Shown: piece after piece, positions 1,883 to 37,496 of the stretch | How positions within the stretch are numbered: the stretch's first letter is position 1 | Layout: the number at the start of each line of letters is the position of its first letter | NCBI RefSeq assembly: GCF_054482525.1 | Contig: NZ_JBTHVG010000003.1 | Direction: 5' to 3' (one strand) | Length of the DNA: 64,000 bases | Source of the DNA: a plasmid | The notes under the pieces: generated by a model | Told to the model about the DNA's origin: nothing | Database searches by the model: none | What the model saw: the letters and a program-made list of their open reading frames with translations, nothing else | Made by a program: the position numbers and the translations under genes

Positions 1883-4800
1883 GTGAAACTTAGAAAAACA
1901 ATCACCTCAGCGATTATTGCATCAATGGTTGCCAATACTATGAGTTGGGCTTTTTATGTCACACTCATAAACATGGTAATGACACCACGTGTTTACGCTG
2001 CTGACGCTATATTTGACCAGCTCGAAAATAATTTTAACCTTGCAAATCCTAACGCAAATCGCAATGCAACCACCAGTGCTCAGGACATTGTGGAGAAATA
2101 CAAGAACGCGGATTCAGGCGAGAATGTCAGTGGGAAGATCACCGAGAAATACGTGGGTAAAGCCGAATCCGCTAATCTTAATCTCGGGAAGTATGGGGCA
2201 GGGAACTCTAATGAAAGTGTCATGAAAAATGCCGCATCCGATGGAAAGTCTATTGGTAGCGCCGTACAACTGCCGAGTATGTCTGGAGGGACAATCAATT
2301 CAAACTACACCAAGGAAGGGGCAAAGCTGCTCTCTCGTGATGCTAATGGCAACATTGGTATAAGCAGTAATCCCAATACTACTCCTGGAACCAAAACAAA
2401 TACGGGAGAGATTTTCAGCTCAGAGCAAAAGCACAGCGATATAAAGTTCAACGCCGCAGATCGTTATGGGGATGAGGATGGCTTTGTTAACGATATAAAG
2501 AATCGGAAAAGCCAGTTATTTGATGCTCAAAGTTATGATGGCGTTGCCTACCGCACCCTCGTAAATGCTAACAAGGACAACCCGGCATCGTCTGTAAAGC
2601 CTAACGATCCCATGTTTACTGCGGGGAGAAATGAGATAACCAATGCTGTTGCTGGTACTGGAAACTGGCTTCAGAACTGTAATGTTGAGACCTCCAAAAA
2701 AACAGTAACCACACACTATCCTGATTACAAAGAGTTCTACTGTAACTCGCCTAAGCAAGATAACTTCAGCAGCTGCACGATAACTCGTGACTTCTCTGTT
2801 CCTGTATACATTTCAGGCGGAAACGGAGACATGTCGATGTGCGGCGATAATTGTGTGCGTATATGGTTTGGTCGCCGTGATGACAACTACTGGAGTGACG
2901 GGGTATTTGATAACGAACTGACATTAAAATTCCATCCGGATGCAAAATTGGCCTCAGCAAAGATTGTTAACGCGGAGTGGGATGACCACATGCGGGTAAC
3001 ACTTGATGGCACGCAGATTTTTGCTCACATAGATGGTGCATATCGAGAAAGTGACTATCCGGCTCCAAAGGGATCTTGGGAGTTAAAAAAATCGTGGAAA
3101 CTCGACAAAGTATACGATGTAACTGAAAAGGTCAGAAAATCAGTTTATGAAGAACCTGATCGTGAAGTGACAATGGCATCCAGAGTCTGGGTTGGTGGGG
3201 GAGGTGAAGGGTACTTTGAGGTTGAGCTGACGTTTGAAAATATGAAGCTCGAAGATAAGCACGTCCAGGAACCAGCTGGTTGTTACGATGCTGTACAAAC
3301 ACCAAATACATTCTGCCGTTTCGATCGGTTTAAAGATATGGATGTTGGCACGAAGCGGCTTCCGGAAAGCGTGCTTTCTATGGCAAAGCCGCTGTATGAA
3401 GGCGATAAAGGCTTTCTTACCTGGAAGACTAACCTTGAAGGCTATTTTTGTGATCCATTGGCTAAAGACAAGATTTGCTCTTATGACGCCAGTGGGAAAA
3501 TTATGAAAGACGCTAATGGAAAGGACCTCTGTTACAACTACGAAGAAATTAAGAGTATGCCTGATGCATGTAGTTCTTATAAAAATGATGCAGCATGTGT
3601 ACTCGATAAACAAACATGTGCAGAGGGTTGGTTCGATGAGGGCACTAACAGCTGCTACATGTATGAACAGAAATACACCTGTGACAGAGGTAAGGATGTA
3701 GTTCGTGAGGTTGAATCTTCTACAAATGCCTGTGTTGGCATGATCCCATGTTCTGGAGGAACATGCGAAACTGGGCCAAAGGAAGAGAACAACGATTTTG
3801 GAAAAGTTGCGGCTTATTCAAACATGGTTCAGTACATGCAGGGCGAAGCCAAATGCGAAGACCCTAACGATGCCAATTCCTGTTCTGTCTTTGAAGGAAA
3901 ACCTGAATGGTGTGGTCGTTCAGTAGGCTTTGTAAATGGCCTGGCAAAGACGGACTGCTGCGAAGCACCGCAGGGAACCGCAGGAGCACTTGAAGGTATC
4001 ATGCTTGCCGGATCTATGATCAGAAACACTAACTGGACCAGAGTTAATGCTCAGCTAATAAAATGGACCGGCGGTGATACAGGTACATGGGCTTCTATGT
4101 CCAATGCGGTCGGTGAGTGGACTGCATCAGCTGGTAAAACAGTAGGGCAAATGTGGAACAATGTCACGAGCTCCTTAACGAGCGTATATGAAAACGTCGC
4201 TGGTAATCTAAGCAGGGCAGTTGGGTCTTCCGCAACTTCTGGAGGGGCAGGAGGTGCTGGCCAGTTGGCACAGGAAACAATGTCCAGCTTCGGTATAGGT
4301 CAGCTTAAGCAGATGGCAATGAAGAAAGCCTACGAATTGCTACCAGATACAGTTCGAGACTTTGTCTTTAAGAACGTTGCTACTACCGGAGGAGAGGTTG
4401 TCTTCTCGGCTGCGGTTCAAAACTTTATGCTTGCATTAAACGTGATCGGTTGGATTTATACAGCCTATCAGGTCACTAAAATGCTTTTAGAAATGTTGGT
4501 AGCATGCGACCAGAAAGAGATGGAAGCTTCTATTCATAAGAATCAAAAATCCTGTTTTACATTAGATACGGAACGATGCGTCAAATATCTGAATGTTGGT
4601 TTCACAAAGAAATGCGTTAAAAAAGCAACAGACATGTGCTGTTATAATTCCATGTTGTCACGCGTTATTATGCAACAAGCTTATCCGCAATTAGGAATAG
4701 ACCCTGTCGCCTCTAATTGCGTGGGGCTATCAATAAAGCAAATACAGCAACTGGATTTCGATAAAATTGATCTGACGGAGTGGATTAATGATGCAGTTCA

Positions 4801-5071
4801 GGTAGGAGAAGTTCCTGATCAATATTCAAAATTCTCCGAAGAATCAATTGTGGAAAACTTACCATTCCAGAATGAGAACTATCAACTTCCATCAGAACGT
4901 ACCAAGGAAGCAATGGGCGGTGAAGAAAATATGATAAAGGCCAGACAAGAAAATGCTCAGGCTATAAAAGAGGAAAATGTAGATTGTAGCTATTTACCTC
5001 GACCGGCCATATGTGAGGTAGGTTCAACTACGCTGGATCCGGTTACGGGCAAGCAGTTGCCGAAATATTGA
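1883..5071 (+). CDS. traN: Mating-pair stabilisation protein TraN/TrhN-like (1062 aa, Cys-rich)
   Basis: GTG start with AAGGAG RBS; N-terminal signal peptide; many conserved Cys pairs, C-terminal CC motif (KKATDMCCYNSMLSRV); directly follows traU; size matches the long TrhN-type proteins of IncHI/SXT-like elements. Confidence 0.8.
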   Translation: MKLRKTITSAIIASMVANTMSWAFYVTLINMVMTPRVYAADAIFDQLENNFNLANPNANRNATTSAQDIVEKYKNADSGENVSGKITEKYVGKAESANLNLGKYGAGNSNESVMKNAASDGKSIGSAVQLPSMSGGTINSNYTKEGAKLLSRDANGNIGISSNPNTTPGTKTNTGEIFSSEQKHSDIKFNAADRYGDEDGFVNDIKNRKSQLFDAQSYDGVAYRTLVNANKDNPASSVKPNDPMFTAGRNEITNAVAGTGNWLQNCNVETSKKTVTTHYPDYKEFYCNSPKQDNFSSCTITRDFSVPVYISGGNGDMSMCGDNCVRIWFGRRDDNYWSDGVFDNELTLKFHPDAKLASAKIVNAEWDDHMRVTLDGTQIFAHIDGAYRESDYPAPKGSWELKKSWKLDKVYDVTEKVRKSVYEEPDREVTMASRVWVGGGGEGYFEVELTFENMKLEDKHVQEPAGCYDAVQTPNTFCRFDRFKDMDVGTKRLPESVLSMAKPLYEGDKGFLTWKTNLEGYFCDPLAKDKICSYDASGKIMKDANGKDLCYNYEEIKSMPDACSSYKNDAACVLDKQTCAEGWFDEGTNSCYMYEQKYTCDRGKDVVREVESSTNACVGMIPCSGGTCETGPKEENNDFGKVAAYSNMVQYMQGEAKCEDPNDANSCSVFEGKPEWCGRSVGFVNGLAKTDCCEAPQGTAGALEGIMLAGSMIRNTNWTRVNAQLIKWTGGDTGTWASMSNAVGEWTASAGKTVGQMWNNVTSSLTSVYENVAGNLSRAVGSSATSGGAGGAGQLAQETMSSFGIGQLKQMAMKKAYELLPDTVRDFVFKNVATTGGEVVFSAAVQNFMLALNVIGWIYTAYQVTKMLLEMLVACDQKEMEASIHKNQKSCFTLDTERCVKYLNVGFTKKCVKKATDMCCYNSMLSRVIMQQAYPQLGIDPVASNCVGLSIKQIQQLDFDKIDLTEWINDAVQVGEVPDQYSKFSEESIVENLPFQNENYQLPSERTKEAMGGEENMIKARQENAQAIKEENVDCSYLPRPAICEVGSTTLDPVTGKQLPKY

Positions 5072-5075
5072 AGAA

Positions 5076-5097
5076 GGGGCCGTTAGGCCCCTTTTTT
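5076..5097. terminator. Bidirectional rho-independent terminator between convergent traN and lipoprotein gene
   Basis: GGGGCC-GTTA-GGCCCC stem-loop followed by T6, with an A-rich run on the other side. Confidence 0.7.
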
Positions 5098-5099
5098 AA

Positions 5100-5972
5100 T
5101 TACTTGGCTTTCAATGTTTTTTCTGGGAAGCCTTTTTTACCGTATTCACCGGTAAAGAGGTAATAATCTTTTCCGTTGATGGAGGCTGCAACACCCCCTG
5201 GAGTTGTTGTATTTGGGCTATCAGAACGGAAAATGATACCCGAAAAATCAGCGCTTGTTTCGTTTCCTTTAAATGGGATGAACACATAACGAATTACAGC
5301 GTAATCACCAGCGGGAAGGTTTAGCTGAGGAATTTCGGTTCCTGTTGCGGGGCGAATCGCCTGAAAGCTGTACATTGAATCTGTAGGGAAAACATCAGCA
5401 TCAGGCTTAGAGGGCAGATCACAGGTACTCCATTTATTGACGACTGCCATATCAATTTTACATGTGGCCAGAGCTGCTTTCTGTTTTTCAGGGTTGTATC
5501 CAAATGAGGCCTGAGTTGCTTTTGTATGCTCAAAAACATACTTAGCTCCTTCACGTACCAAACTTTCATCATTGTAAGGCAATTTTTTTGGATTGGGGAC
5601 GAACACTAGGTATTGATTGACCTGGATGTATTCGGCGTCAGAAGAACTGTACAAAGAGCCGAGGCTCATGATCCCAAAACCTTTTAGACCGCCTGTTACG
5701 TAGCCCATCGAACTATTGATGAGATACTTAGAAAGAAAGTTGTCGGCATCCCCTCCAGGAGTAACCTCTTGCTCCTTAAAATTAACGTCGAAACCAGCAA
5801 ACGAATAGGCATTCTTGGCGACAGAATCATTTGCTTTAGCATGCCAGTACTGGCCGTGACTGTACGCATTCAGAGCGGTGCCTGGCGTAGTGCCGGTGTC
5901 ACCGGCACAACCCGATAGGGAAAAACCAATGACGACAGAAGAGACCAGAGATACTAAACGTAAAAGTTTCAT
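5100..5972 (-). CDS. Lipoprotein, unknown function
   Basis: Signal peptide with lipobox LSGC (MKLLRLVSLVSSVVIGFSLSGCAG); convergent with traN. Confidence 0.6.
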   Translation of the reverse strand: MKLLRLVSLVSSVVIGFSLSGCAGDTGTTPGTALNAYSHGQYWHAKANDSVAKNAYSFAGFDVNFKEQEVTPGGDADNFLSKYLINSSMGYVTGGLKGFGIMSLGSLYSSSDAEYIQVNQYLVFVPNPKKLPYNDESLVREGAKYVFEHTKATQASFGYNPEKQKAALATCKIDMAVVNKWSTCDLPSKPDADVFPTDSMYSFQAIRPATGTEIPQLNLPAGDYAVIRYVFIPFKGNETSADFSGIIFRSDSPNTTTPGGVAASINGKDYYLFTGEYGKKGFPEKTLKAK

Positions 5973-6151
5973 TTAAAGCCCTTTTTGTAATGTCTTTTGG
6001 AGATGGAACCATTATTCCATAGTCACGCGTTTCACAAACAACCTGATTGCATAAAAAAGGAAAAAAAGTGATTTCCAGTAGAACCAGCAGTACACAAGAA
6101 AAGCGCTTTTATAAAAATGTATAATTATTAAAACGAAGTAATGAGGTTGAA

Positions 6152-7936
6152 ATGGGTAAGCCAACAGAAGAGCAAAGACCTGTTATCGAGAATGCTAGCG
6201 CAAACAATATGGTGATAGCAGCGCCTGGATCAGGCAAATCATTCACCATGATAGAAGCGGTTATATCGATTCTCAAAAAGTATCCATATGCAAGAATCGG
6301 GATGGTGACCTTTACTCGCGCTGCAACAAACGCACTTGCAGCAAAGTTACAAAAGCGATTGAGCAAGAAGGATCTTGACCGGGTGCTGGTGGATACTTTT
6401 CACGGACTCGTTAAGAAGCAACTGGACATGATTCGCTGGCCGGGAAAGATGTTGATAGGGCCAGCACAGAGATCTGTCATTCACCGGGCTTTGAAAGAAT
6501 CCGGTGTAACGATGAAGTTTGCTGAAGCTGAATTCGTTATTGATGCTATCGGCAGAGAAATGGATACGGATGTGATTTCAGTTCGGCATAACAGACAACA
6601 GATCCATTTATTTAATACCTATCAGGCGTTATGCCAGAAAGACCATGTGGCGGACCTCAATGCTCTTTCAAAATTTGTTGTCGGTCAAATGCATTCGGGA
6701 AAAATGCGCACGTTAGATTTGACACATTTGATAGTAGACGAAGTTCAGGATACTGACTCTATACAATTCTCATGGATAGCATTGCATACAAGAGCTGGAG
6801 TCTATACGAGTATAGTTGGAGACGATGATCAGGCCATCTACTCCTTCAGATCCTCAGGAGGAGTCAAAATATTTCAACAGTTTGAAAAACACTTCAGACC
6901 TAACATATTTTACTTAAACACATGCTTTAGGTGTGAACCTGAAATTTTAGAGGTGGCCGGAGCACTGATAGGAAAGAATGTTTACCGTTATGCCAAAGAG
7001 TTACGCTCGGCAAAAAAGGGAGGAGGAAAGGTCACTTTTCGTTCATATGTAGATATGGAGGAACAGATACAGGGTATTTTAAGCCTTATAAATCAGGATC
7101 CACATGGATGGGCAATTCTAAGCCGCAATAATGCTCACTTGGATGAGCTAGAAAGTTTGATCGAACAGCCAGTAATTCGTTACGGAGGTAAATCATTCTG
7201 GGATGAAAAAGAAACAAGCGATGTGTTAAGCCTTATGGCCTTTTTCCGACAATCAAATGATCCTCGCTTAATGAAGAGAGTATTGGCATTGTTTGGAGAA
7301 CAGGAATCAGTTTTGGATGATGTGGCATTGAGTATGAGAGGAAGAAAAGTTACTTTTGGCGACCTTGCCATCCCGGAGGACAGTTCTCTCGAAACAAAAA
7401 CATTACATTCAAACTTCGTGCGCTTTACCCAGGAAAGTACTGATAAAGTTGAGATAGCAAAACGTTTCGCCAACCTTACGAAATGGATGGAATCGTCGTC
7501 AATCAAGATGAGGAGTAATAAAGGTACAGCAACCTTAACAAAAATTGCTTTAGACACTTGTAAACAGTGGGCAGAAAAGACTGGTTGGATGAATATGATC
7601 AATCGTGCTGCTGCAATGTCATTAGGCCCTAGGAAGAAGGACGAGGAATACAGCCCAGAGAAAGTAGTCCTATCAACCTTGCATGGTTCAAAGGGTCTTG
7701 AGTGGAATAAAGTAATAATAATGAGTTGTAATGCGGATCAGATACCAAGTAAAAGATCAGTTGGGGAGGAGGCAATAGAAGAAGAAAGACGTTTGCTTTA
7801 TGTTGGATTTACGCGTGCAGAAAAGCAACTTTTTGTAATGTGGTATGGTGACCCTTCTTTCTTTTTAAGAGAATGCAGTGAAGAAAAGATAAAAGAAGCA
7901 GCTAATATTCGAATTTCTCCAGTTTATACAGAATAA
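6152..7936 (+). CDS. UvrD/Rep/PcrA-like SF1 DNA helicase (594 aa), solitary
   Basis: Walker A AAPGSGKS, motif II LIVDEVQDTDS, motif III GDDDQAIYSFR, motif V VLSTLHGSKGLEWNKVII, motif VI YVGFTRAEKQL; GAGG RBS 5 nt upstream of the ATG. Confidence 0.85.
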   Translation: MGKPTEEQRPVIENASANNMVIAAPGSGKSFTMIEAVISILKKYPYARIGMVTFTRAATNALAAKLQKRLSKKDLDRVLVDTFHGLVKKQLDMIRWPGKMLIGPAQRSVIHRALKESGVTMKFAEAEFVIDAIGREMDTDVISVRHNRQQIHLFNTYQALCQKDHVADLNALSKFVVGQMHSGKMRTLDLTHLIVDEVQDTDSIQFSWIALHTRAGVYTSIVGDDDQAIYSFRSSGGVKIFQQFEKHFRPNIFYLNTCFRCEPEILEVAGALIGKNVYRYAKELRSAKKGGGKVTFRSYVDMEEQIQGILSLINQDPHGWAILSRNNAHLDELESLIEQPVIRYGGKSFWDEKETSDVLSLMAFFRQSNDPRLMKRVLALFGEQESVLDDVALSMRGRKVTFGDLAIPEDSSLETKTLHSNFVRFTQESTDKVEIAKRFANLTKWMESSSIKMRSNKGTATLTKIALDTCKQWAEKTGWMNMINRAAAMSLGPRKKDEEYSPEKVVLSTLHGSKGLEWNKVIIMSCNADQIPSKRSVGEEAIEEERRLLYVGFTRAEKQLFVMWYGDPSFFLRECSEEKIKEAANIRISPVYTE

Positions 7937-8330: not shown

Positions 8331-9203
8331 ATGTCTAAAAATAAAGCTCGCAGTAAAGCCCTTCATCAAACCTTTAGTGAAATTATTCCAGAGATGGATA
8401 AGGCGCTAAACAAACAGCTCTTAGAAGTTCTGATGAAATATACAGAACGTGATAATGAACTGATTGTTATTTTGAATGAGGACGGCCCAAATATCATTGA
8501 ACTTAAGTCTCTTAAGCCTGTGTCGTTGTTGGCCGAAAAGCTTTCTGCTTATTCAAGCTATTATCATGTGGATGTTGTGGAGCTCGTGGTCAAGAAAATT
8601 GATTTCGAAGGAGCTTATAAGCTTCTTAAAGCTTCCCCAGATGTACCACTTTTTAAAAGCTTAACTGAACTGGATAAATATCTTGTTGAGGAGTTTGAAA
8701 AATACGGATTAAATTCATTTCTTGACGTGGATAATCTGGATTACTCACTTGAAAAAGCCAGTGAACTCAAAAATGAGCAGTTAATAAATTGGGTTTCGGA
8801 CATCATTTGCAAACGTGAAAAATTAACTTTACGTAAGCGTTTTGATGTCGCAGTAAAGGCCCACTACGAAAATGTAGAAAAAATGTATGATACCATTCGT
8901 CCGTTAATGAAAAAACTGGGTTTCCCAGAAGATCTCATGACGCACACCTTTAGTGAGTTAAGCGTTTTTGAAACTAAAGGATGGGACCATGCAATAAAAT
9001 CGAAAATTGAGACTCTCGCTAAGCGTGAAACTCAATATTTAGATGATGCGGCTAAAGCAGAGAATCGACGTCTTGTAACAGAGAAGTTGGAGAACTCTTT
9101 AGCGATTGCACCAACTAAACCAACAAGAAATTGGTTACATATTGCCGGAATTGCCTGTTTGGTAGTCTGCACGTTCATGTATGTAACTAATAAATTTATT
9201 TAA
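8331..9203 (+). CDS. Hypothetical protein with C-terminal membrane anchor
   Basis: 290-aa ORF, AT-rich codon usage, C-terminal hydrophobic helix WLHIAGIACLVVCTFMYV; no recognised motif. Confidence 0.5.
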   Translation: MSKNKARSKALHQTFSEIIPEMDKALNKQLLEVLMKYTERDNELIVILNEDGPNIIELKSLKPVSLLAEKLSAYSSYYHVDVVELVVKKIDFEGAYKLLKASPDVPLFKSLTELDKYLVEEFEKYGLNSFLDVDNLDYSLEKASELKNEQLINWVSDIICKREKLTLRKRFDVAVKAHYENVEKMYDTIRPLMKKLGFPEDLMTHTFSELSVFETKGWDHAIKSKIETLAKRETQYLDDAAKAENRRLVTEKLENSLAIAPTKPTRNWLHIAGIACLVVCTFMYVTNKFI

Positions 9204-9260: not shown

Positions 9261-9638
9261 ATGTCATATCTTGAATATATCAATGAAGTAAAAGTGTCCG
9301 GGATAGTTATCAGTGCTGTGGAGAAAAAAATGACTGACCAGAGTATAGGTTTGTTAATAAAGCTCAAAAATAGGATGAAGACAGAAGTTGATGGTGAAAT
9401 CACTGAGAGAGAATTTTCAGTTCAAATCAAGGTGTCGCCTGAAATGTATTCAACCTGTTTCACTGGTATAAATCAGGGTGATGAGTTGATGGTCTCCGGT
9501 TATATTGTTGTCGATACTATTATGATTGAAGGGAGAGAACATCCTCTTGACTACATGAGAGTGGTAGCAACAAGTAAGTTGGCTCACATACCTAAACCTC
9601 TAAAAGGTTTTGGACAAAGTAGCTTTAATCAGATCTGA
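9261..9638 (+). CDS. Hypothetical protein, possible OB-fold ssDNA-binding-like
   Basis: 125 aa with GAGGAG RBS; beta-rich pattern loosely resembling SSB/PriB. Weak assignment. Confidence 0.4.
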   Translation: MSYLEYINEVKVSGIVISAVEKKMTDQSIGLLIKLKNRMKTEVDGEITEREFSVQIKVSPEMYSTCFTGINQGDELMVSGYIVVDTIMIEGREHPLDYMRVVATSKLAHIPKPLKGFGQSSFNQI

Positions 9639-9698: not shown

Positions 9699-10676
9699 AT
9701 GAAACAAAAATTTAGGGCTACTGCAATAAGTAGTAATCAACTTAGTTTTTTTTCTATACTCGATATAGATGAAGATGAAATAACGCAAATAGTTGATTCA
9801 CCCAAAGAGCATTTAAATGATGCTTACACGTCCGGATTAAACTTTAAATCAGAAGAAAGTAACATTTCTGAGATAAATTATGATTCTGAAAGGCGTGAAA
9901 ATCACCTTTATGAAAAATCCAAATTACTTAAAAATCAGATTTTGCATACAATTAATTTTGCAGCAGAAACAGATTATCTATATACGGTTGAAGAATATAA
10001 CCCAGATTTGGGTGGTCTGGTAATAGAATGGACCCCTGAGGATGTGTATGTTGTTTTTCTATCCGCTATGGAAGAGTCTTTGGAAATCATTAAAGAACTA
10101 GTGTTGAGGAGAAAGTTATTCTTCAAAGATGACAATGGTAATATCACAGTGAATCCACTTTTAGAAGCTGAAACACGGTGGTATATGTCAAAATCATTTG
10201 AATACACTTGTTTATGTCATGGACTTGATGCATGTGAATTTAGAGCGGAATTAAAATCATGGCTCTATTATCATTCGCATCGTTCGATTAGTGAAAACAC
10301 GAAATTAGCTGAATGCAGGAATGATGATGAAATCATTTTGCATGATTGCAATGACGATATGGGCTGGGACATCTTCTTTGATCAGGATTATTTAATGTCA
10401 GAAAAAAAACTGGCTGTTAAATGGACTGACAGGGAAATTATGGATGTTTACATAAAAGCTTTTAAATCCACATTAGAGTTGTTTGACGAGCTTGTTTCAT
10501 GTGATCTGTTAACTAAACGAAACGCTTTTGGCAAGTTAGAAATCAATCCAATATTCGAAAATCATTTTGAATGGATCATGTCTGAAGCTTTTGAAATAGT
10601 GGGAAATCATCTTGGTTATAATGTGCCTCAAATCAGGAAACTGATGGCAACTATTTGCCAAATGAATCTCAAATAA
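9699..10676 (+). CDS. Hypothetical protein
   Basis: 325-aa ORF, GGAG RBS, no recognised motif. Confidence 0.5.
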   Translation: MKQKFRATAISSNQLSFFSILDIDEDEITQIVDSPKEHLNDAYTSGLNFKSEESNISEINYDSERRENHLYEKSKLLKNQILHTINFAAETDYLYTVEEYNPDLGGLVIEWTPEDVYVVFLSAMEESLEIIKELVLRRKLFFKDDNGNITVNPLLEAETRWYMSKSFEYTCLCHGLDACEFRAELKSWLYYHSHRSISENTKLAECRNDDEIILHDCNDDMGWDIFFDQDYLMSEKKLAVKWTDREIMDVYIKAFKSTLELFDELVSCDLLTKRNAFGKLEINPIFENHFEWIMSEAFEIVGNHLGYNVPQIRKLMATICQMNLK

Positions 10677-10733: not shown

Positions 10734-11792
10734 ATGTCTAATGCCGCTATGAAGTTAAATGAAACATCTTCTGATGCTTATGAAAAATTAGAAGCTCTTC
10801 TTTCCCCGGATGTTATAAAGTTAAAACATTATGTGGATAAAGGTGAGTATCTTTTAGTTCTAGCAAAGGACCTTTTTGGTATTCCAGAAATGGATCCAAA
10901 GATGGCTGTGCCTGTTTTCAAAACTAAAACCTCGTATCGAGCTCCGCTGAACAAAGACTACATACCAAATCCCCGAATACTTGAACAAGTGGTTAAACTG
11001 CTTATCAGTCCGGATATAGATTTAAGTGTGTGTCTTAAAGGTGAGTCCGGTTCTGGCAAGACTGAAATGGTAATGTACATTAGCCACATGATGAATTGGC
11101 CGCTGACAATTAAGCAGATCAACAGCAATATTCGAGTTGATGAGCTTGAAGGTGAGCGCAGTCTTAATGGTGGTAATACAGGTTTTGTACACAGCGATTT
11201 GGTAACGGGATTTCGTAATGGTCACCTCATTCTTCTGGATGAAGTGGACAAAATCGATCCTGATACGGCAGCAAAACTTCACATGCCCATTGAACGTAAG
11301 CCCTGGTCACTCAGTGCTAATGGTGGTGAGGTTATAACTGCTAATGGCTACACGCGATTTATTGGTACTGCAAACACAAACATGAGTGGAGGCGCTCGCC
11401 GGTTCGTTTCTTCTCAACGTCAAGATGCAGCTTTTATAAAGCGGTTCTTGATAGTTGAAATGGAGAAGCCCGACAAAGTTGCTTTAACCAATGTGCTTAC
11501 TAAACGATATAGCTCTTTGCCTTTTCAGGTCATTGAGAAGTTCGTAAGAGTAGCGATTGCAGTAAATGACTCTGGTACAGAAGACAGTGTGATGGATATT
11601 CGTCAATTAGTAGCTTGGGTTGGCACGTCGATGACGTTAAAAACCTTTAGTCTTCTTGACACTTTCAAAATAGCTTTTGCTTCTGCTTTACCTTTACATG
11701 TGGTCGATCTTGTTCTTCAAGCTATAGATCTTTCTCTTGGCGAAGACAAGGATAAATCGCTGGAGTATTTCACAGCAAAAAAGTCGAGTTAG
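10734..11792 (+). CDS. AAA+ ATPase, CobS-like/MoxR-like
   Basis: Walker A GESGSGKTEM, Walker B LILLDEVDK, about 350 aa as in the CobS-like ATPases of conjugative elements and phages. Confidence 0.8.
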   Translation: MSNAAMKLNETSSDAYEKLEALLSPDVIKLKHYVDKGEYLLVLAKDLFGIPEMDPKMAVPVFKTKTSYRAPLNKDYIPNPRILEQVVKLLISPDIDLSVCLKGESGSGKTEMVMYISHMMNWPLTIKQINSNIRVDELEGERSLNGGNTGFVHSDLVTGFRNGHLILLDEVDKIDPDTAAKLHMPIERKPWSLSANGGEVITANGYTRFIGTANTNMSGGARRFVSSQRQDAAFIKRFLIVEMEKPDKVALTNVLTKRYSSLPFQVIEKFVRVAIAVNDSGTEDSVMDIRQLVAWVGTSMTLKTFSLLDTFKIAFASALPLHVVDLVLQAIDLSLGEDKDKSLEYFTAKKSS

Positions 11793-29021: not shown

Positions 29022-29234
29022 ATGTCTGACACAAAGCAGTCTTATTTAATGAAATTCCGTAAGTGTAGTTCGTTCGAAACGCTCGAAAAAGTATTTGAAA
29101 GGTTATGTGAAAAAAACTCGGGTGTCGCCTCTCTTGAAATTTCTGGTGCTTATGATCATCGTAAAGCCGAACTGACAATGAAAAAGTTATATGACAAAGT
29201 TCCTGCGAGTGTGTGGACCTTTGTTCGCGAGTAA
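29022..29234 (+). CDS. Small hypothetical protein
   Basis: GAAGG RBS before the ATG at 29022; about 70 aa. Confidence 0.3.
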   Translation: MSDTKQSYLMKFRKCSSFETLEKVFERLCEKNSGVASLEISGAYDHRKAELTMKKLYDKVPASVWTFVRE

Positions 29235-30677: not shown

Positions 30678-30843
30678 ATAACTTGGGCTTTGCGCATTAA
30701 ACCCTTGCCGCAGGCGGTGTACCGCATATCCGGCACAGACAGTCAGTTTTTTCTGGCAGCTTAAATTTGACACTGCTTAATATAGTGATTCATTAAACAG
30801 GTTCAGTATGCTGCCAGAACGTTTTAGTCGTAATGGGCGTCCG

Positions 30844-32343
30844 TTAGTTTTCAACTAACTGAACGACGACCAGCCTGCCGCCTTCCTCCTTTGACAGAAC
30901 AAACTGAGCGTTATTCGTCAGTTCAATTTTTTCCCCAATGGCAATCTGTCGTTTATCCGGTAATGACATAAGCCCATTTATGCCTTCATTTACTAACCAC
31001 CACTGATCGTTATGGAAAACAAAATACCCAACTCGTTTCCTTTGTGCATCGGTTGTGCGCTCATTTGGCGCAATGAGGCGATTCACATGCCACGCATAGA
31101 TTGACTGCCCGCTCCACACCATCAACCGGTGGTCGTCAGGACGATAACTGCCTTCCTTTCGGGATGAATATAAATTTAGAACCGGTAATTTACCCTTGTA
31201 TGGCGTACCGCAGTAGGGACAAACCGGCTTTGTCTTACCTGAGAAAACGTACCATTTCTGTTCACACGCCTTGTTCTGGCAGGGCTGTATCAGATCGACT
31301 GTTTTAACCAGGGCACTTTCCCACTCATCGGCGGTCGGGCGTTTATTGGCATCGTGTAAGCCATCAATAAAGGCGCGTTCAAACAAAGGCGTCAAATAAG
31401 GGCCCATGATGGTGTAAGGAATTTTCTCCGGGTCAGCCCAGGGCAGTGAAAAGGAGGATAGCTGACTGACTTTGACTGCATTGCTTTTGTCTGTCGGATG
31501 TTCAATGAAGAGTGCCTTCTCACCCATAGATAAGGTCTCATCACGTACTTCATCCGACATGTCATGTATTTTTCCGCCACGTAGCGGATGACGGAAGAAC
31601 AGATACATGTAGATAAGCACCGACAGCGCATGACGGTCAGTAGAAATGCTTGGCAATACGCGGTTCGGATCCTCTTTGGAAAGATGGCTGGTTTTCACCA
31701 CTTCCGGAGCGATAAAATCCGGGGTGCCCACGACGTCGGGAGGATACTTTCCAGGGACAACCAGGCCGTCTACGTCAATGATGCAGGCATGTCCCATTTC
31801 TGGATCGATAAGCACGTTTTTATAGCTTAGATCGCTGTGACAGAGACCTGCCGCATGCATCCTTCTGACGGCTCTTGTTAGCAGCAGACAGACCTTGAGA
31901 TAGGTAAGCGTATTGCCTCGTTCACGTAGGTCGAGAAATTTATTCTGGTTGCTGGCGCTGGCAAACCATTTGCCTTCCTTTTCACGGCCTTTTATGCCAA
32001 GAAAATCATCGTTTTTAGAGCCGTATTTAAAGAAAAAGTAGCTTTTGTAGGTTGGAACCACGATGCCGATTTTATCCCCATGCTCAACAACGTGGGTCGG
32101 CCAGCAAAACAGGTCCTTCCAGTATTCACCTCCGGACTGGCCAAAAATGTTTTGCCTGTAGCGTCCGGTGATCATATCAATCCGATCCCGGGCCTGCTCG
32201 TTCTGCGGTTTATGATAAAAAGCGACGACGTATGATTTATCAGGCGAGAAGTAAACATCCTTCATCGAGCCCGAACCAATTACCTCGTCAACATACTGGA
32301 CTGTTTCGCCGTCCTTTGTTTTGCACGTAACAATATTTGCCAT
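30844..32343 (-). CDS. Ser/Thr protein kinase with C-terminal zinc ribbon and FHA-like domain
   Basis: Gly loop GSGSMKDVY, catalytic loop CHSDLSYKNVLI, DVDG, APEVV; Zn ribbon CQNKAC...CPYC; start set at the ATG at 32343 (GGTGA RBS). The ORF-track start at 32397 would overlap the phosphatase gene. Confidence 0.85.
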   Translation of the reverse strand: MANIVTCKTKDGETVQYVDEVIGSGSMKDVYFSPDKSYVVAFYHKPQNEQARDRIDMITGRYRQNIFGQSGGEYWKDLFCWPTHVVEHGDKIGIVVPTYKSYFFFKYGSKNDDFLGIKGREKEGKWFASASNQNKFLDLRERGNTLTYLKVCLLLTRAVRRMHAAGLCHSDLSYKNVLIDPEMGHACIIDVDGLVVPGKYPPDVVGTPDFIAPEVVKTSHLSKEDPNRVLPSISTDRHALSVLIYMYLFFRHPLRGGKIHDMSDEVRDETLSMGEKALFIEHPTDKSNAVKVSQLSSFSLPWADPEKIPYTIMGPYLTPLFERAFIDGLHDANKRPTADEWESALVKTVDLIQPCQNKACEQKWYVFSGKTKPVCPYCGTPYKGKLPVLNLYSSRKEGSYRPDDHRLMVWSGQSIYAWHVNRLIAPNERTTDAQRKRVGYFVFHNDQWWLVNEGINGLMSLPDKRQIAIGEKIELTNNAQFVLSKEEGGRLVVVQLVEN

Positions 32344-32368
32344 ATTGATCACCGAAGAAGCGTATCCC

Positions 32369-34009
32369 TTACCACAACACCGCAATAGTGCGGTCATCGT
32401 GGTTCCCTGTGGAGAAAAAGTTAAGCCAGTCGCCTAACCTCTCAGGCGCAATACTGGCGTCTGTAAGGACAGGGATGAGCTCATCAAGGAGACGGGTCCA
32501 TTTTTCGTCACTGCGAAGCCCGTTATCTGTCTCAAACAGAGGGTCTGATACGCCATCTGTCATGAGGATCAAGTGAGATACATCATTCCATTTACCCACG
32601 CTGATGCGGCCGCTAAACGAGGGGTCTGCGATAATGCTCTGGTCAAGAAAGCGGGTTTGTCCTGCGTATTCTCCGCTATCGGGATTTCCCAGTATCCTGA
32701 CTTTACCGGAAGGGCTGTATGCACCTATCGCACCATCACCAAGCCAGAATGCAGCCGCAAACAGCTCGTTATCAGTTCGTAGCGCTACAGTTGCCAGTAG
32801 GGTTGTTGAATAGGATTTCACAGGTTGTTCTGCACAAATGGCTTCGTTCTGGATACTGTTGACCGCGAGCGTAGCTGCCTGTTTAAAATGATGAAGCATG
32901 GCGTTTATGGTTGCCTGCTGATCGCTCCCTTCCCACGCCGTGATGTGCTGCTTTAGATGGACGCCTTTCAAACCACTGAGCTGATTGAAAAGGTAATCGC
33001 CAGCCGTTTGGACTGCAATCCGGGAGCCTTCCCGGGAATTTACCGCACTACCGGCCCCGTCTGCGACCAGCATGACAGACCATCCTGTTTCCTGGCAGTG
33101 GTTGATATAGAAGTCGTCATCTCTGAAGCTCCCGGCATGCTCATGAGATCGTCCCCGGCGACTGGCGGCAGCAATACGTATGTCACCCCTGACCAGGCCA
33201 GCAGCGTCCAGATGGGACTTAGGGTAGGAAGCGTCTGCTGGTGGCTCTACCACCTTCCACAGGCTTCTCGGATCGGGATTGACTATAAAAAGCTGTTTTG
33301 TTTCGCATTCGTCGTGCGAAGCGCATGACCAGAGTACTGAAAGCTCTATATCGCCGCTTTCGGTGGGTGTACCTGTCAGCAACTTATGCTCTTTGTCAAA
33401 GGTCAGGCCAATGTTCCTGGGAAAGACAACGTCCCTGACAGTAGCCTGCTGGCCCTCATCCAGAACTATAGCAACCGGCGAAGAGAAACGTTCGCCTGCG
33501 CGGGCGTTGGGAATAACTATTTTAGCTCTCGGGGGAACGGCAGGTGGCACAGCTAATCCGGCCCGCTGCTGGCCTGTCGGTATCTGCCCGGGTTTTAATA
33601 CCAGGGAAGACAGGTTTTCGTCTTCCCTCTGTGCTGGTTTATCAAATTCGTAATAAGGCATCAGCTTCCAGAACGGAGGATGAGGTTCATTTTCTGGCAG
33701 GGGTTGCAGTAATGGTGTATCGGTAGCGTCAATGCCCGGGTTATCAGCATCACTTACGACCGTTTGTTGCTGATCGGAAAGGCTGGATGCTGACGAGGGG
33801 GCGATCTCTGCGTCGTTATAACCTTCGCTAACCCGCGCAGATAAACCCTGTGCAAGGCTCTCAATCCGCTCTTTAAGCCGCATAATCTCTTCAGTAAGGG
33901 AAGGGTCGTGCGATAGAAGAAAAAGCCGCTCACCTTCTACAGGGTGGCCCAGCTCAGACAGCACTAAGCGGATAATCTTCTCTTCAAGTAAAACATTTTG
34001 CGACATCAA
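32369..34009 (-). CDS. PP2C-family Ser/Thr phosphatase with long N-terminal extension
   Basis: PP2C motifs VMLVADGAGS and LILMTDGVSDPL; its ATG overlaps the stop of the upstream vWA gene (ATGA). Confidence 0.85.
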   Translation of the reverse strand: MMSQNVLLEEKIIRLVLSELGHPVEGERLFLLSHDPSLTEEIMRLKERIESLAQGLSARVSEGYNDAEIAPSSASSLSDQQQTVVSDADNPGIDATDTPLLQPLPENEPHPPFWKLMPYYEFDKPAQREDENLSSLVLKPGQIPTGQQRAGLAVPPAVPPRAKIVIPNARAGERFSSPVAIVLDEGQQATVRDVVFPRNIGLTFDKEHKLLTGTPTESGDIELSVLWSCASHDECETKQLFIVNPDPRSLWKVVEPPADASYPKSHLDAAGLVRGDIRIAAASRRGRSHEHAGSFRDDDFYINHCQETGWSVMLVADGAGSAVNSREGSRIAVQTAGDYLFNQLSGLKGVHLKQHITAWEGSDQQATINAMLHHFKQAATLAVNSIQNEAICAEQPVKSYSTTLLATVALRTDNELFAAAFWLGDGAIGAYSPSGKVRILGNPDSGEYAGQTRFLDQSIIADPSFSGRISVGKWNDVSHLILMTDGVSDPLFETDNGLRSDEKWTRLLDELIPVLTDASIAPERLGDWLNFFSTGNHDDRTIAVLW

Positions 34010-35046
34010 CCTCTCCCTCTGTTTACGTCGAAGTTAGTGTTTCCGCCATCATTGCTGAATGACAGACCTGTTTCACACCACGGGCAGATCACGTCATCCG
34101 GGCCGTCAATGCACAGCAATTTTCCGCATGAGCACAGGGCAAACGCACTGGCATTACCGCAGTGAGGGCAACCCGGTACGCCATGCAGTTCGCTGGTGTT
34201 TACCTGCAAACCGGTAGCGGTGGCATCTGACCATGCAAAATAGTCTTCATCGATGGGATAGCATCCGGCAATATTAAAGCTGTTCAGGTTCAGGCTGAAA
34301 TCGAGCCCGGAAATCCTTGCTGGTGGCCGTTCATACTTCATCAGATACGGACGACGGGTCTTGCTGCAACGGCCGGTAAGCGTAACGCAGTTTTCGTCGT
34401 ACGCTTTTACTGGCTCGTCCTTGGCCAGCCGGACTATGTATTCAGTCTGGCTGAGCTCAGGTTGTTTGTCGTCTCCGACGCTGCGGCTGTGCGCCGTAAC
34501 CGAGGCTGTGATCCATTTGATGAAGCGGGTAAAGTCCCCTTCCTGAGACTCGGTGAACAGCATGACATTCTCTGTCAGTTGCCGCAGGGTATTCAGGTCC
34601 GCTGACGGCCCCAGGCCAACGGCAATGAGATTCACTTTACTCGCGTAGTGATCCTTCCAGCGCTTCACTTCTGCGGTTGTGTCGTCAGTCGGACGTCCGT
34701 CGGTAAGGAGATACACGACGGGTTTCCAGTCGCCTTTAGCCTCATGAGTGGTTTTTCTGACCTGGGTATCAATTTGTACGGTCAGCTCACGCAATGCGGC
34801 CCCAAGGCTCGTACCGCCGCCAACGGGAAGGCGGGGAGGGTAGAACGAGGCAATTTCGTGAAGAGGTACAATCGTACGGGCTACACCGGCAAATGCGATT
34901 ACCGAAACCCAGGCTGTTTCAAGTGCGTGTGGATCCTTTCTTAAATCTCCGATGATCATTTGCAGACCATCAGTCATTTTTTTCAGGTTTTCACCAATCA
35001 TGGACTCTGAACAGTCCAGGACAAAAAACACGGGAAGGCGTCTCAT
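34006..35046 (-). CDS. TerY-like vWA protein with C-terminal zinc ribbon
   Basis: MRRLPVFFVLDCSESM MIDAS motif; C-terminal CPHC...CSC...CPWC; start moved to the ATG at 35046 with a GAGG RBS. Confidence 0.8.
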   Translation of the reverse strand: MRRLPVFFVLDCSESMIGENLKKMTDGLQMIIGDLRKDPHALETAWVSVIAFAGVARTIVPLHEIASFYPPRLPVGGGTSLGAALRELTVQIDTQVRKTTHEAKGDWKPVVYLLTDGRPTDDTTAEVKRWKDHYASKVNLIAVGLGPSADLNTLRQLTENVMLFTESQEGDFTRFIKWITASVTAHSRSVGDDKQPELSQTEYIVRLAKDEPVKAYDENCVTLTGRCSKTRRPYLMKYERPPARISGLDFSLNLNSFNIAGCYPIDEDYFAWSDATATGLQVNTSELHGVPGCPHCGNASAFALCSCGKLLCIDGPDDVICPWCETGLSFSNDGGNTNFDVNRGRG

Positions 35047-35131
35047 AATTTTCCTCGTACGGCTGGTACGGCCAGCAGAAAACGTTGCTGTACAGAAAGG
35101 TGCTGCCCGGAAAGCAGCACCTTTCTGTCTG

Positions 35132-35770
35132 TCAGAGCACCAGCTGGATTTCTGGTGGAGGAGGGGGAAGGGTATCAGTTCCGTTATTGATCCCCGCGCT
35201 TGTGCTGCCGGAAGACACGCTGGCCGATACCCATTTAAAGAAACCTGCAAACGCGGTTGAATCTAGCGTCTCCAGAGACACAACCTTATCGGTAAGCTGT
35301 TTTAAGTGCTCATGGCCTGCTTTAGGACCAACGGCGCAGGCAATGATGGATCCGAATCCCCGGCCGCGAATCGCTTTTACCGCTTCACCGTACGCCAGGG
35401 CATCAGAAGGGGTTCCATCAGTCATCAGGAATACCAGAGGACGCCAGTCTCCTTTTGTATCACCATCTGAGCGACGTACATCCCGTTCAACACACTGCAT
35501 CAGACATTCAAGGGCAGCACCGGTGAACGTCCCGCCTGCGCTTGGCACAACGATGTCAGAAAACTGGAAGTCTTCCAGCGGCGTGAGAGGAATGAACTCA
35601 CGCGCCTCATTGTCATAGGTGATAATGGAGATATGAACGCTTTCGAGGGCGTAGGGATCCTGGCGAAGAGCGCTAAGCATCGCCTGAATTCCAACGTTAA
35701 CGGAATGGATGGACTCACCGCGCATCGAGCCGGATGTGTCGATAACAAGGTAAACAGGCAGGCGGCGCAT
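35132..35770 (-). CDS. terY: TerY-family vWA protein
   Basis: MRRLPVYLVIDTSGSM MIDAS motif, about 212 aa; its ATG at 35770 overlaps the terX stop (ATGA). Confidence 0.8.
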   Translation of the reverse strand: MRRLPVYLVIDTSGSMRGESIHSVNVGIQAMLSALRQDPYALESVHISIITYDNEAREFIPLTPLEDFQFSDIVVPSAGGTFTGAALECLMQCVERDVRRSDGDTKGDWRPLVFLMTDGTPSDALAYGEAVKAIRGRGFGSIIACAVGPKAGHEHLKQLTDKVVSLETLDSTAFAGFFKWVSASVSSGSTSAGINNGTDTLPPPPPEIQLVL

Positions 35771-36411: not shown

Positions 36412-36433
36412 GACATCCCCTTAATTAATAAAA

Positions 36434-37072: not shown

Positions 37073-37496
37073 ATGTAATTCCTTCTTAAGAGATCGGAAG
37101 AGGAGAGTAGTTTCAGGAAGAGGCCAGAGTTTGTAGATTTGATAAAACGGCACGACATCTGTCGGGTGGAGATTAAATACTCAGAAGCGGCATTAAAGAA
37201 ATAAGTTAACCACCATTGAATTACCGACATGTGAATGGCCTCTTATCAGAGAAAAAAATTCAGACCGTACTGGAATATAAATTTCTGAAAAAAACTCCGG
37301 CAAAAATAAACTTTCTTATGTATGAAAATCATCATACATCACAGATCTGCATGAATGGAGTGTAAATCGCCCAAAGATTGATGTGTAGCACAAGAGGATG
37401 TCAAGACACCAGGTTTTGTAGGCAGAAAGGCGCTGCTGACATTGCGGGAGGAGAATAGATCAAAACTCCGTCACGCAGATACAGAGGTGAAATATG

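What the first reader, a model, noticed from the sequence alone, without database searches (positions are those of the whole stretch)
5100..5972. Lipoprotein convergent with traN
An outer-membrane-type lipoprotein placed immediately beside the mating-pair stabilisation gene is a candidate entry- or surface-exclusion factor.
Basis: inference. Interest (0 to 1): 0.25.

Follow-up and report, generated by a model that had tools for sequence, protein, structure and literature searches.

The report
IncHI lipoprotein gene beside traN
This is a real, conserved but uncharacterised outer-membrane lipoprotein gene of IncHI resistance plasmids that sits tail-to-tail with the mating adhesin gene traN, exactly where related IncA/C plasmids carry their proven surface-exclusion gene sfx, so it is a good but untested candidate for a barrier that stops cells taking up a second copy of the plasmid.

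Summary
Window 5100-5972 (-) encodes a 290-aa protein with a textbook lipoprotein signal (lipobox LSGC, Cys22, Ala at +2, which predicts outer-membrane sorting). It lies 28 bp from the stop codon of trhN (traN), with a shared terminator hairpin between them. The window is IncHI2 backbone and the gene is the counterpart of R27 orf4 (R0004), annotated only as hypothetical protein or lipoprotein.

No function has been shown. I found similar traN-convergent lipoprotein genes in IncT Rts1 and IncP-7 pCAR1; the pCAR1 protein is a clear Sfx homolog.

Orf4 itself has no significant sequence similarity to Sfx once the signal peptide is removed, and no PDB fold match. It evolves faster than its neighbours TrhU, TrhN and TrhI, is exchanged mosaically, and one copy was captured alone by a prophage.

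Verdict: probable Sfx-like surface-exclusion factor (about 0.45), in a distinct sequence family, untested. It is not an entry-exclusion protein; the known IncHI1 exclusion genes eexA and eexB lie elsewhere.

The parts
5100..5972 (-). orf4 (counterpart of R27 R0004): CDS for a 290-aa predicted outer-membrane lipoprotein; candidate surface-exclusion factor
   Evidence: ORF list. Annotated CDS WP_000771832.1 in pSTM6-275. 76% identical to the R27 lipoprotein WP_000792088.1. RAST calls a fragment of it 'IncH1 plasmid conjugative transfer protein Orf4'. No Pfam, NCBIfam, PHROG, PADLOC or PDB sequence match.
5907..5972 (-). Signal peptide and lipobox (residues 1-22, LSGC; Cys22 is the lipidated first residue of the mature protein; +2 is Ala)
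   Evidence: Translation. G21 and C22 are invariant in 29 homologs, and +2 is always A, S or T.
5649..5720 (-). Conserved Gly/Ser-rich hydrophobic segment (about residues 85-108, GYVTGGLKGFGIMSLGSLY; G90, T93, G94, M102, S106 and Y108 invariant); AlphaFold confidence is low here; candidate membrane-interacting or oligomerising segment (inference)
   Evidence: Alignment. pLDDT <50 for residues 85-111. It is the hydropathy maximum after the signal peptide; comparable segments exist in the Rts1, pCAR1 and P0112 proteins.
5421..5462 (-). Invariant cysteine pair C171/C184 (probable periplasmic or surface disulfide loop)
   Evidence: Invariant columns. Sfx has an invariant pair at 170/184.
5074..5097 (.). 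Hairpin in the 28-bp gap between the trhN and orf4 stop codons (AAGGGGCC-GTTA-GGCCCCTT followed by T-run); probable terminator for trhN and perhaps for both convergent genes
   Evidence: Sequence. The automatic scan did not list it, so it was read by eye. IncC has predicted terminators flanking sfx.
5973..6151 (-). AT-rich intergenic region between orf4 and the divergent trhI; should hold orf4's own promoter (a candidate TGnAATAAT extended -10 lies about 35-45 nt upstream of the ATG; not validated)
   Evidence: Sequence. The scan found no canonical sigma-70 site inside it. The prophage-captured copy retains only 67 bp upstream of the ATG.
1883..5071 (+). trhN (long-type TraN, 1062 aa), the mating-pair stabilisation adhesin; presumed donor-side target or specificity partner (inference by analogy with Sfx/TraN)
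   Evidence: NCBIfam NF011459, 2530 bits. Pfam F_T4SS_TraN. All long-type TraN proteins use recipient OmpA (PMC13104618).
2795..3253 (+). Coding region of the TraN tip domain (residues 305-457), a second hot spot of allelic exchange
   Evidence: Tip coordinates from Table 1 of PMC13104618. Tip identity is 60% against 93.5% for the base between plasmids whose flanking genes are 99-100% identical.

Best explanation
orf4 encodes a lipoprotein that is lipidated at Cys22 and sorted by Lol to the outer membrane of any cell carrying an IncHI plasmid. It is probably expressed from its own promoter, independently of the thermoregulated tra operons. There it most likely acts as a surface-exclusion factor. 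When an IncHI donor tries to mate with a cell that already carries the plasmid, Orf4 prevents the donor's long-type TraN adhesin from forming a stable mating pair. The plausible route is masking or reorganising the TraN receptor OmpA, rather than binding TraN directly. This would lower redundant transfer and complement the EexA/EexB system.

Shown here: the gene is real and conserved; it has a lipoprotein signal; it stays linked to traN; it is not detectably related to known families; it diverges fast and is exchanged mosaically; it exists as a stand-alone copy in a prophage.

Inferred: outer-membrane location, independent expression, the exclusion activity itself, and the OmpA/TraN mechanism.
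For: (1) Positional and architectural equivalence with Sfx.
- In IncA pRA1, the CDS convergent with traN is the 286-aa lipoprotein Sfx (LSGC lipobox), 38 bp downstream of traN. The downstream AAA-ATPase/DUF3150/VWA block is shared with the window.
- Sfx is necessary and sufficient for residual exclusion, is located in the outer membrane, is expressed constitutively, acts only in recipients, and has its specificity set by donor TraN.

(2) The linkage is to traN, not to the operon.
- A 259-aa lipoprotein gene (LSGC) is convergent with traN in IncT Rts1, and a 278-aa one (LVGC) in IncP-7 pCAR1, although traN has moved to other contexts there.
- The pCAR1 protein is a full-length Sfx homolog (hhalign 98.2%, E 3e-14).
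- In IncHI-like plasmids the traN side of orf4 is constant, while the trhI side takes insertions (toxin-antitoxin genes, IS200/605, a TraG_N gene).

(3) Weak colinear similarities with Sfx.
- An N-terminal S-x-A-x-N helix.
- A Gly-rich hydrophobic segment of low pLDDT.
- A 'vvFVPNP' / 'IAWMPA' strand followed by a 20-22-residue helix.
- A cysteine pair at 171/184 against 170/184.
- The most divergent Orf4-like proteins (P0112, P0117) align colinearly with the Sfx+pCAR1 profile over 105 columns. The score of 22.4 exceeds all 40 column shuffles and both reversed controls.

(4) It is not needed in donors, where that was tested in relatives.
- Every Rts1 gene except repA was deleted, and orf245 is not among the 32 genes that affect conjugation.
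- IncC donors lacking sfx still transfer.

(5) It has an autonomous function. A 90%-identical copy (the gene plus 67 bp upstream, with its own terminator) sits next to the integrase of a lambdoid prophage with no traN nearby. This parallels the orphan sfx genes on mobilizable islands.

(6) It evolves like a surface specificity determinant.
- It is the least conserved of TrhU, TrhN, Orf4 and TrhI in 35 of 36 pairs of 9 lineages.
- Its dN is 5 times that of TrhU and 2.2 times that of TrhN.
- Between two plasmids with TrhI 100% and TrhU 99.4% identical, Orf4 is 56% and the TraN tip 60% identical, within one tract of about 3.2 kb.
Against: - No exclusion assay of this gene exists in the literature I could search.
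- Orf4 against Sfx: BLASTP matches only the signal peptide. HMMER scores are at most 6 bits. After signal-peptide removal, hhalign scores 15.5 and 14.9, no better than shuffled or reversed controls.
- IncHI1 already has two exclusion proteins, EexA and EexB, one of them in the outer membrane. From my memory of Gunton 2008, which I could not read here, that cosmid screen recovered only the Z operon.
- The Orf4 allele and the TraN tip allele are not obligately coupled: tip 100% with Orf4 70% in one pair, and tip 78% with Orf4 95% in another.
- The promoter is not identified.
- The prophage copy is a single instance, and no phage genome in the phage collection carries a homolog.
Confidence: 0.45

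Rival explanations
1. It is a surface barrier with a different target. Orf4 would be a lysogenic-conversion-type outer-membrane lipoprotein, like phage lambda Bor / plasmid TraT-Iss, or the Cor and Llp receptor blockers. It would protect the host from phages that use an outer-membrane receptor such as OmpA, or from serum, and any effect on conjugation would be incidental.
For: A stand-alone copy lies at the integrase end of a lambdoid prophage, a classic moron position. The gene diverges fast and is exchanged as alleles, as expected for a surface-exposed protein under external pressure. The Orf4 allele is not strictly coupled to the TraN tip allele. Long-type TraN uses OmpA, which is also a phage receptor, and TraT was reported to block an OmpA-specific phage (cited).
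Against: There is no match to Cor, Llp, Bor or TraT models, or to any PHROG or PADLOC family, beyond the signal peptide. No homolog exists in 50,697 phage records. The near-universal location is beside traN in conjugative backbones, including elements where traN has moved. A pure anti-phage cargo gene would not be expected to follow traN.
Confidence: 0.2
2. It is a donor-side accessory of TraN. Orf4 would act as a pilotin or assembly factor, or as a mating-pair modulator (for example for disaggregation), working with TraN in the donor outer membrane.
For: Linkage with traN is tight and conserved across IncHI, IncA/C, IncT and IncP-7. Both products are envelope proteins. In one plasmid pair, orf4 and the tip-encoding two-thirds of traN were exchanged as a single tract.
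Against: The gene is convergent with the tra operon rather than part of it, and a terminator hairpin lies between them. The Rts1 counterpart is not among the genes needed for conjugation, although every gene except repA was deleted. IncC donors lacking sfx still transfer, and Sfx acts in the recipient. Orphan copies exist without traN. From my memory of Lawley 2003, which I could not read here, the essential R27 Tra2 genes do not include orf4.
Confidence: 0.12
3. It is a backbone lipoprotein with no role in conjugation or exclusion, such as envelope maintenance or host adaptation. Its place beside traN would be historical, and the similar arrangement in IncA/C, IncT and IncP-7 would reflect common ancestry of the backbone rather than function.
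For: No functional data exist. Orf4 has no significant homology to Sfx. These plasmid families share many syntenic genes of unknown function.
Against: Purifying selection acts on the gene (dN/dS 0.17). It is retained in 1,964 plasmid records. Its adjacency to traN survives rearrangements that separated traN from traU/traW. It was captured as a single gene by a prophage.
Confidence: 0.2

Closest known systems
Sfx (vcrx085) surface-exclusion lipoprotein of IncC/IncA and related plasmids (Rivard et al., PLoS Genet 2024, PMC11493245)
   Same: A lipoprotein of almost the same length (286 against 290 aa) with the same LSGC lipobox and a non-Asp +2 residue. The gene lies immediately downstream of and convergent with traN in a MOBH/MPF_F backbone, with hairpin terminators nearby. 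Orphan copies occur on other mobile elements. Both have a cysteine pair near residues 170/184, an N-terminal S-x-A-x-N helix, a Gly-rich hydrophobic segment of low model confidence, and then a strand plus a long helix.
TraT, surface-exclusion lipoprotein of IncF plasmids (cryo-EM decamer, PMC11733297)
   Same: An outer-membrane lipoprotein encoded in a transfer region and thought to act in recipients. Both have a hydrophobic segment that could insert in the membrane or oligomerise. A phage relative exists for TraT (lambda Bor, from my own knowledge), paralleled here by a prophage copy of Orf4.
EexA/EexB of the IncHI1 Z operon (Gunton et al. 2008)
   Same: They are encoded in the Tra2 region of the same plasmid family. 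[quoted passage not shown]
   Different: A different locus (R27 about 20.2-22.9 kb, against orf4 at 4.1-5.0 kb). No sequence relationship (hhalign probability 0.05%). EexA/EexB are reported to be needed in both donor and recipient.
traN-convergent lipoproteins of IncT Rts1 (orf245) and IncP-7 pCAR1
   Same: Same position, orientation and lipobox, and similar length (259 and 278 aa). The pCAR1 protein is a true Sfx homolog. Rts1 Orf245 shows marginal N-terminal similarity to Sfx, scoring 25.7 against a maximum of 22.4 in 40 shuffles.
   Different: Each is its own sequence cluster. Matches to Orf4 are short and partly non-colinear. None has been tested for exclusion.

Membership tests
IncHI backbone 'Orf4/R0004' lipoprotein family | Full-length sequence homology to the R27 lipoprotein encoded between trhN and trhI | tested here: met
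   76% identity over 290 aa to R27 WP_000792088.1, in the same position and orientation. The family alignment has 37 invariant columns.
Sfx surface-exclusion lipoproteins (IncA/C and relatives) | Sec/SPII lipoprotein signal with sorting compatible with the outer membrane | tested here: met
   Lipobox LSGC, Cys22, +2 Ala. This is a prediction; no SignalP tool or fractionation was available.
Sfx surface-exclusion lipoproteins (IncA/C and relatives) | Gene adjacent to traN, downstream and convergent, in a MOBH/MPF_F element | tested here: met
   A 28-bp gap from trhN in the window. The same arrangement is seen in pRA1 and in all IncHI-like loci examined.
Sfx surface-exclusion lipoproteins (IncA/C and relatives) | Detectable sequence homology to Sfx94/SfxRA1 | tested here: not met
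   BLASTP matches the signal peptide only. HMMER scores are at most 6 bits in both directions. hhalign on mature regions scores 15.5 and 14.9, no better than shuffled or reversed controls. An exhaustive profile search of 1.84 billion proteins returns no Sfx-family protein. Only the divergent P0112/P0117 branch gives a weak colinear match (score 22.4, E 0.022).
Sfx surface-exclusion lipoproteins (IncA/C and relatives) | Same three-dimensional fold | tested here: inconclusive
Sfx surface-exclusion lipoproteins (IncA/C and relatives) | Reduces transfer when expressed in recipients, with specificity set by donor TraN | not testable with these tools
   This needs mating assays. No published assay was found.
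TraT (IncF surface exclusion) | Match to the TraT family profile or fold | tested here: not met
EexA/EexB (IncHI1 Z-operon exclusion proteins) | Homology to EexB, or location in the Z operon | tested here: not met
   hhalign probability 0.05% against the R27 CDS at the eexB position, which I assigned from memory of the operon order. The Z operon lies about 15 kb away in R27.
Inner-membrane entry-exclusion proteins (TraS, Eex of SXT/IncC, TrbK) | Cytoplasmic-membrane location (transmembrane helices, or an inner-membrane-retained lipoprotein) | tested here: not met
   There is no Asp at +2, and no transmembrane helix after the signal peptide (maximum 19-residue Kyte-Doolittle hydropathy 0.88). 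This is prediction only.

The most novel reading that the evidence does not exclude
The lipoprotein genes convergent with traN in IncHI (Orf4), IncA/C and IncP-7 (Sfx) and IncT (Orf245) are one ancient, very fast-evolving superfamily of TraN-directed surface-exclusion factors. This superfamily would be common to all MOBH/MPF_F elements. Its members would be repeatedly swapped as alleles, sometimes together with the TraN tip, and occasionally captured by prophages and mobilizable islands as stand-alone anti-plasmid defence genes. IncHI plasmids, which are major carriers of mcr, NDM and typhoid multidrug resistance, would then have an unrecognised third exclusion layer that works through the TraN-OmpA contact.
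Probability: 0.3. Interest if true: 0.6.

Novelty: new variant of a known kind. Interest (0 to 1): 0.42.

Why it matters
IncHI1 and IncHI2 plasmids are among the main vehicles of multidrug resistance in Salmonella, E. coli, Enterobacter and Klebsiella; this exact gene occurs in more than 1,100 sequenced plasmids.

If Orf4 is a surface-exclusion factor, several things follow. It would explain part of who can receive these plasmids. It would extend the TraN-linked Sfx principle from IncA/C to a second large plasmid group whose TraN receptor (OmpA) is already known, which would make the still-unknown mechanism of surface exclusion directly testable: does the lipoprotein mask OmpA? It would also identify a gene that other mobile elements can borrow as an anti-plasmid barrier.

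If Orf4 is not an exclusion factor, the conserved traN-lipoprotein pairing across four plasmid families still needs an explanation.

Tried and rejected
- **Family assignment by profile libraries.** Pfam, NCBIfam, PHROGs, PADLOC and PDB sequences gave nothing for Orf4. For Sfx, Rts1 Orf245 and the pCAR1 protein, PHROGs and PADLOC gave only signal-peptide-level hits (Cor, Rz-like spanin).
- **Direct homology of Orf4 to Sfx.** The tool's first hhalign result (probability 40%) was driven by the signal peptide. After trimming it fell to background.
- **Bridging through other families.** Rts1 Orf245 against Sfx reached probability 92% with the signal peptide but only 19.6-25.7 score units without it. 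Orf245 against Orf4 scored 27.9, but on a non-colinear 'FVPxxP' motif, so I do not count it.
- **Exhaustive profile search for intermediates.** Only 31 hits were found. The two distant full-length ones sit on contigs of about 1 kb without context.
- **Scan of genome contigs.** It used a single Sfx-type peptide pattern and returned only 10 Sfx-like loci, with no intermediates.
- **dN/dS.** dS is saturated in most pairs, so only dN and one ratio are usable.
- **Test for obligate co-variation of Orf4 with the TraN tip.** This was rejected, because discordant pairs exist.
- **Literature.** Lawley 2003 (PMC145343) is not held in the library. I did not try to retrieve Gunton 2008 and know it only through citing papers and memory. 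Searches for R0004 and for the WP accessions returned nothing relevant.
- **Promoter scan.** No canonical promoter was found in the orf4-trhI intergenic region.

Full report
**What is there.** The window is IncHI2 plasmid backbone. Positions 4800-6300 are 100% identical to many IncHI2 plasmids such as pSTM6-275, and 1,113 plasmid records match at >=99%. The window is colinear with pSTM6-275 up to position 55,899. The finding's coordinates hold an ATG-initiated ORF on the minus strand, 5100-5972, of 290 aa. It is annotated in RefSeq as 'hypothetical protein' WP_000771832.1 and lies between trhN and trhI. The N-terminus (MKLLRLVSLVSSVVIGFSLSG-C) is a canonical lipoprotein signal: lipobox LSGC, Cys22, and Ala at +2, which by the E. 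coli Lol rule predicts outer-membrane sorting. trhN (1883-5071 +) matches the NCBIfam TraN equivalog NF011459 over its full length at 2530 bits. The two stop codons are 28 bp apart, and the gap holds a GC hairpin followed by a T-run.

**It is a real, conserved gene with no known family.**
- tblastn finds it in 1,964 plasmid records: IncHI2 at 95-100%, IncHI1 at about 78%, and Klebsiella IncHI1B-type plasmids at 41-45%.
- In R27 it is the 'lipoprotein' WP_000792088.1 between trhI and trhN, which is R0004 by gene order since R0005 is trhN. A RAST-annotated record calls a fragment of it 'IncH1 plasmid conjugative transfer protein Orf4'.
- An alignment of 29 homologs has 37 invariant columns. They include G21/C22 of the lipobox, a second cysteine pair (C171/C184), and a Gly-rich motif around residues 90-108.
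- dN/dS is 0.17 in the only pair with unsaturated dS.
- Pfam, NCBIfam, PHROGs, PADLOC and PDB sequence searches return nothing.
- A profile search of 1.84 billion representative proteins returns only 31 hits. All belong to the same narrow family, apart from two distant full-length lipoproteins (P0112, P0117) on very short contigs and one weak hit to a repetitive 597-aa protein.

**The key precedent.** Rivard et al. (PLoS Genet 2024, PMC11493245) showed that IncC plasmids carry sfx (vcrx085), encoding a 286-aa lipoprotein found in the outer membrane.
- sfx lies between traN and acaB and is expressed constitutively.
- It is necessary and sufficient for the exclusion that remains after deleting the entry-exclusion gene eexC.
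- It acts only in the recipient, and its specificity is determined by the donor's TraN.

In the IncA plasmid pRA1 the same gene is the CDS convergent with traN, 38 bp downstream, with lipobox LSGC. So the IncHI gene has the same size, the same lipobox, the same position and the same orientation relative to traN. The backbones belong to the same MOBH/MPF_F lineage and share the downstream AAA-ATPase/DUF3150/VWA block.

**The pairing extends beyond IncA/C and IncHI.** In IncT Rts1, traN is followed by a convergent 259-aa lipoprotein gene (orf245; lipobox LSGC). In IncP-7 pCAR1 it is followed by a convergent 278-aa lipoprotein gene (LVGC). This holds even though traN sits in different neighbourhoods in those plasmids. 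The pCAR1 protein is an unambiguous full-length Sfx homolog (hhalign 98.2%, E 3e-14, 238 columns). In IncHI-like plasmids the traN side of orf4 is constant, whereas the other side accepts insertions: toxin-antitoxin genes, IS200/IS605 elements, and even a TraG_N gene. The linkage is therefore with traN.

**Is Orf4 a member of the Sfx family? Not demonstrably.**
- BLASTP aligns only the signal peptides.
- HMMER profile-against-sequence scores are at most 6 bits in both directions.
- The tool's hhalign probability of 40% came from the signal peptide. With mature regions only, the score is 15.5 against Sfx and 14.9 against Sfx plus pCAR1. About a third to a half of column-shuffled controls score as high (22/60 and 20/40), and so do reversed controls.

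There are colinear hints:
- an N-terminal helix with S-x-A-x-N (Orf4 DSVAKNAYSFAG; Sfx HSRAYNIAEAGG; P0112 KSLASNLVAFSG);
- a hydrophobic Gly/Ala/Ser-rich stretch that AlphaFold models with low confidence in both proteins;
- a strand (YLVFVPNP against LIAWMPA) followed by a helix of 20-22 residues;
- cysteine pairs at 171/184 against 170/184.

**Evidence bearing on function.**
- *Not a donor requirement in relatives.* All Rts1 genes except repA were deleted, and only 32 affect conjugation. orf245 is not among them. IncC donors lacking sfx still transfer.
- *Autonomy.* P0027, 90% identical to a plasmid-borne Orf4 homolog, lies beside the integrase of a lambdoid prophage (integrase, SSB, N, CI, Cro and CII nearby) on a 747-kb contig, with no traN present. 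The captured DNA is just the gene plus 67 bp upstream, followed by its own hairpin. This mirrors orphan sfx genes on mobilizable islands. It is a single case, and no phage genome in the phage collection carries a homolog.
- *Evolutionary behaviour.* Across 9 IncHI-like lineages, Orf4 is the least conserved of TrhU, TrhN, Orf4 and TrhI in 35 of 36 pairs; mean identities are 85, 72, 50 and 62%. Between IncHI2 and IncHI1, its dN is 0.163, against 0.032 for TrhU, 0.074 for TrhN and 0.121 for TrhI.

Allele replacement is evident. L027 and L030 have TrhI 100% and TrhU 99.4% identical, but Orf4 is 56% and the TraN tip 60% identical (tip = residues 305-457, from Table 1 of PMC13104618). These lie within one divergent tract of about 3.2 kb that starts at the orf4 promoter and ends at the tip. 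The coupling is not obligate, however. pIMP4_LL34 and pRAO166a have identical tips but 70% Orf4, and pIMP4_LL34 and L023 have 78% tips but 95% Orf4. Both orf4 and the tip are hot spots of exchange, which is expected for surface-exposed specificity determinants, but the data do not prove that they are matched pairs.

**Most likely mechanism.** The protein is exported, lipidated at Cys22 and sent to the outer membrane. It is probably made from its own promoter in every plasmid-bearing cell, because the gene is convergent with the thermoregulated trhN operon and separated from it by a terminator.

By analogy with Sfx, it would lower the ability of the cell to act as a recipient for IncHI donors by interfering with TraN-mediated mating-pair stabilisation. 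All long-type TraN variants depend on recipient OmpA. Surface-exclusion lipoproteins have been proposed to conceal receptors rather than to bind the adhesin. The simplest model is therefore that Orf4 masks or reorganises OmpA or its surroundings. The conserved Gly-rich hydrophobic segment could mediate membrane insertion or oligomerisation, as the N-terminal helix does in TraT. All of this paragraph is inference.

**Rivals.**
- A general surface barrier such as phage-receptor masking or serum resistance. The prophage copy and the lack of strict tip coupling favour it; the fidelity to traN and the absence from phage genomes argue against it.
- A donor-side TraN accessory. The linkage favours it; the convergent orientation, the donor-dispensability of relatives and the orphan copies argue against it.
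- A backbone lipoprotein unrelated to transfer.

The known IncHI1 exclusion proteins EexA and EexB lie in the Z operon about 15 kb away in R27 and are unrelated in sequence. Their existence neither requires nor excludes a third factor. In IncC, sfx was likewise found only after the entry-exclusion gene had been characterised.

**Verdict.**
- Observation: confirmed.
- Interpretation: partly supported. Surface exclusion is plausible and now has a strong positional precedent. Entry exclusion is unlikely.
- Nothing has been functionally shown.
- Orf4 is best described as a new sequence variant of the traN-linked surface-exclusion lipoprotein kind, with about 0.45 confidence in that function.

Noticed in passing
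L022:6934-7864 (gene 7001-7876), contig CDRUZK010000001.1 of GCA_977068915.1: A stand-alone orf4 homolog (P0027, 90% aa identity to a Buttiauxella plasmid copy) is inserted next to the integrase of a lambdoid prophage. Only the gene and 67 bp of upstream DNA were captured, and they are followed by a separate hairpin. No traN or other transfer gene was called in the 7 kb on either side.
   Followed up: partly
L027 vs L030 (L027:5450-8700); L007 vs L009 (L007:9300-10600): Mosaic allele exchange occurs in otherwise near-identical IncHI-like backbones. One tract replaces orf4 together with the 3' two-thirds of traN, including the tip domain. Another replaces only the 3' parts of orf4 and traN. The TraN tip (residues 305-457) can also be swapped without orf4 (pIMP4_LL34 vs L023).
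   Followed up: partly
L010:18884-19663 (Rts1 orf245) and L011:13189-14025 (pCAR1): traN-convergent lipoprotein genes are also present in IncT and IncP-7 plasmids. The pCAR1 protein is a clear Sfx homolog (E 3e-14), a family extension not mentioned in the parts of the Sfx paper I read. Rts1 orf245 forms a small separate family of 9 clusters.
   Followed up: partly
window 10734-11792, and downstream to about 15400; compare L003:34828-42293, L010:1387-7191, L011:3202-7340: A conserved AAA/MoxR ATPase, DUF3150 and VWA-domain gene block lies a few kb from traN in IncHI2, IncA, IncT and IncP-7 backbones. Its function is unknown. I did not examine it.
   Followed up: no
window 8331-9203 (+), 9261-9638 (+), 9699-10676 (+): Three conserved backbone ORFs of unknown function lie downstream of trhI. 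The first (290 aa) ends in a hydrophobic C-terminal tail. The same trio is syntenic in all IncHI-like loci seen.
   Followed up: no
window about 21700: Compared with pSTM6-275, the window lacks the IS3-family IS1203 copy; the alignment jumps over L034:4614-5918. The window also stops being colinear with that plasmid after position 55,899, presumably because it carries a different resistance region.
   Followed up: no
window about 30800-50800, 29022-29234, 53680-55300 (annotation transferred from pSTM6-275): The GC-rich part of the window (0.51-0.54) corresponds to the tellurite-resistance ter clusters (terZABCDE, terW, terY-type VWA, kinase and phosphatase genes). An Hha/YmoA-family regulator gene lies upstream of them and a HipA-type toxin-antitoxin pair downstream.
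   Followed up: no
R27 microarray data, PMC7366339: trhN was the only tra gene reported as more highly expressed at 37 C than at 25 C. A possible contribution of read-through from the convergent orf4 transcript to that signal was not considered in the parts of the paper I read, and I did not examine it.
   Followed up: no
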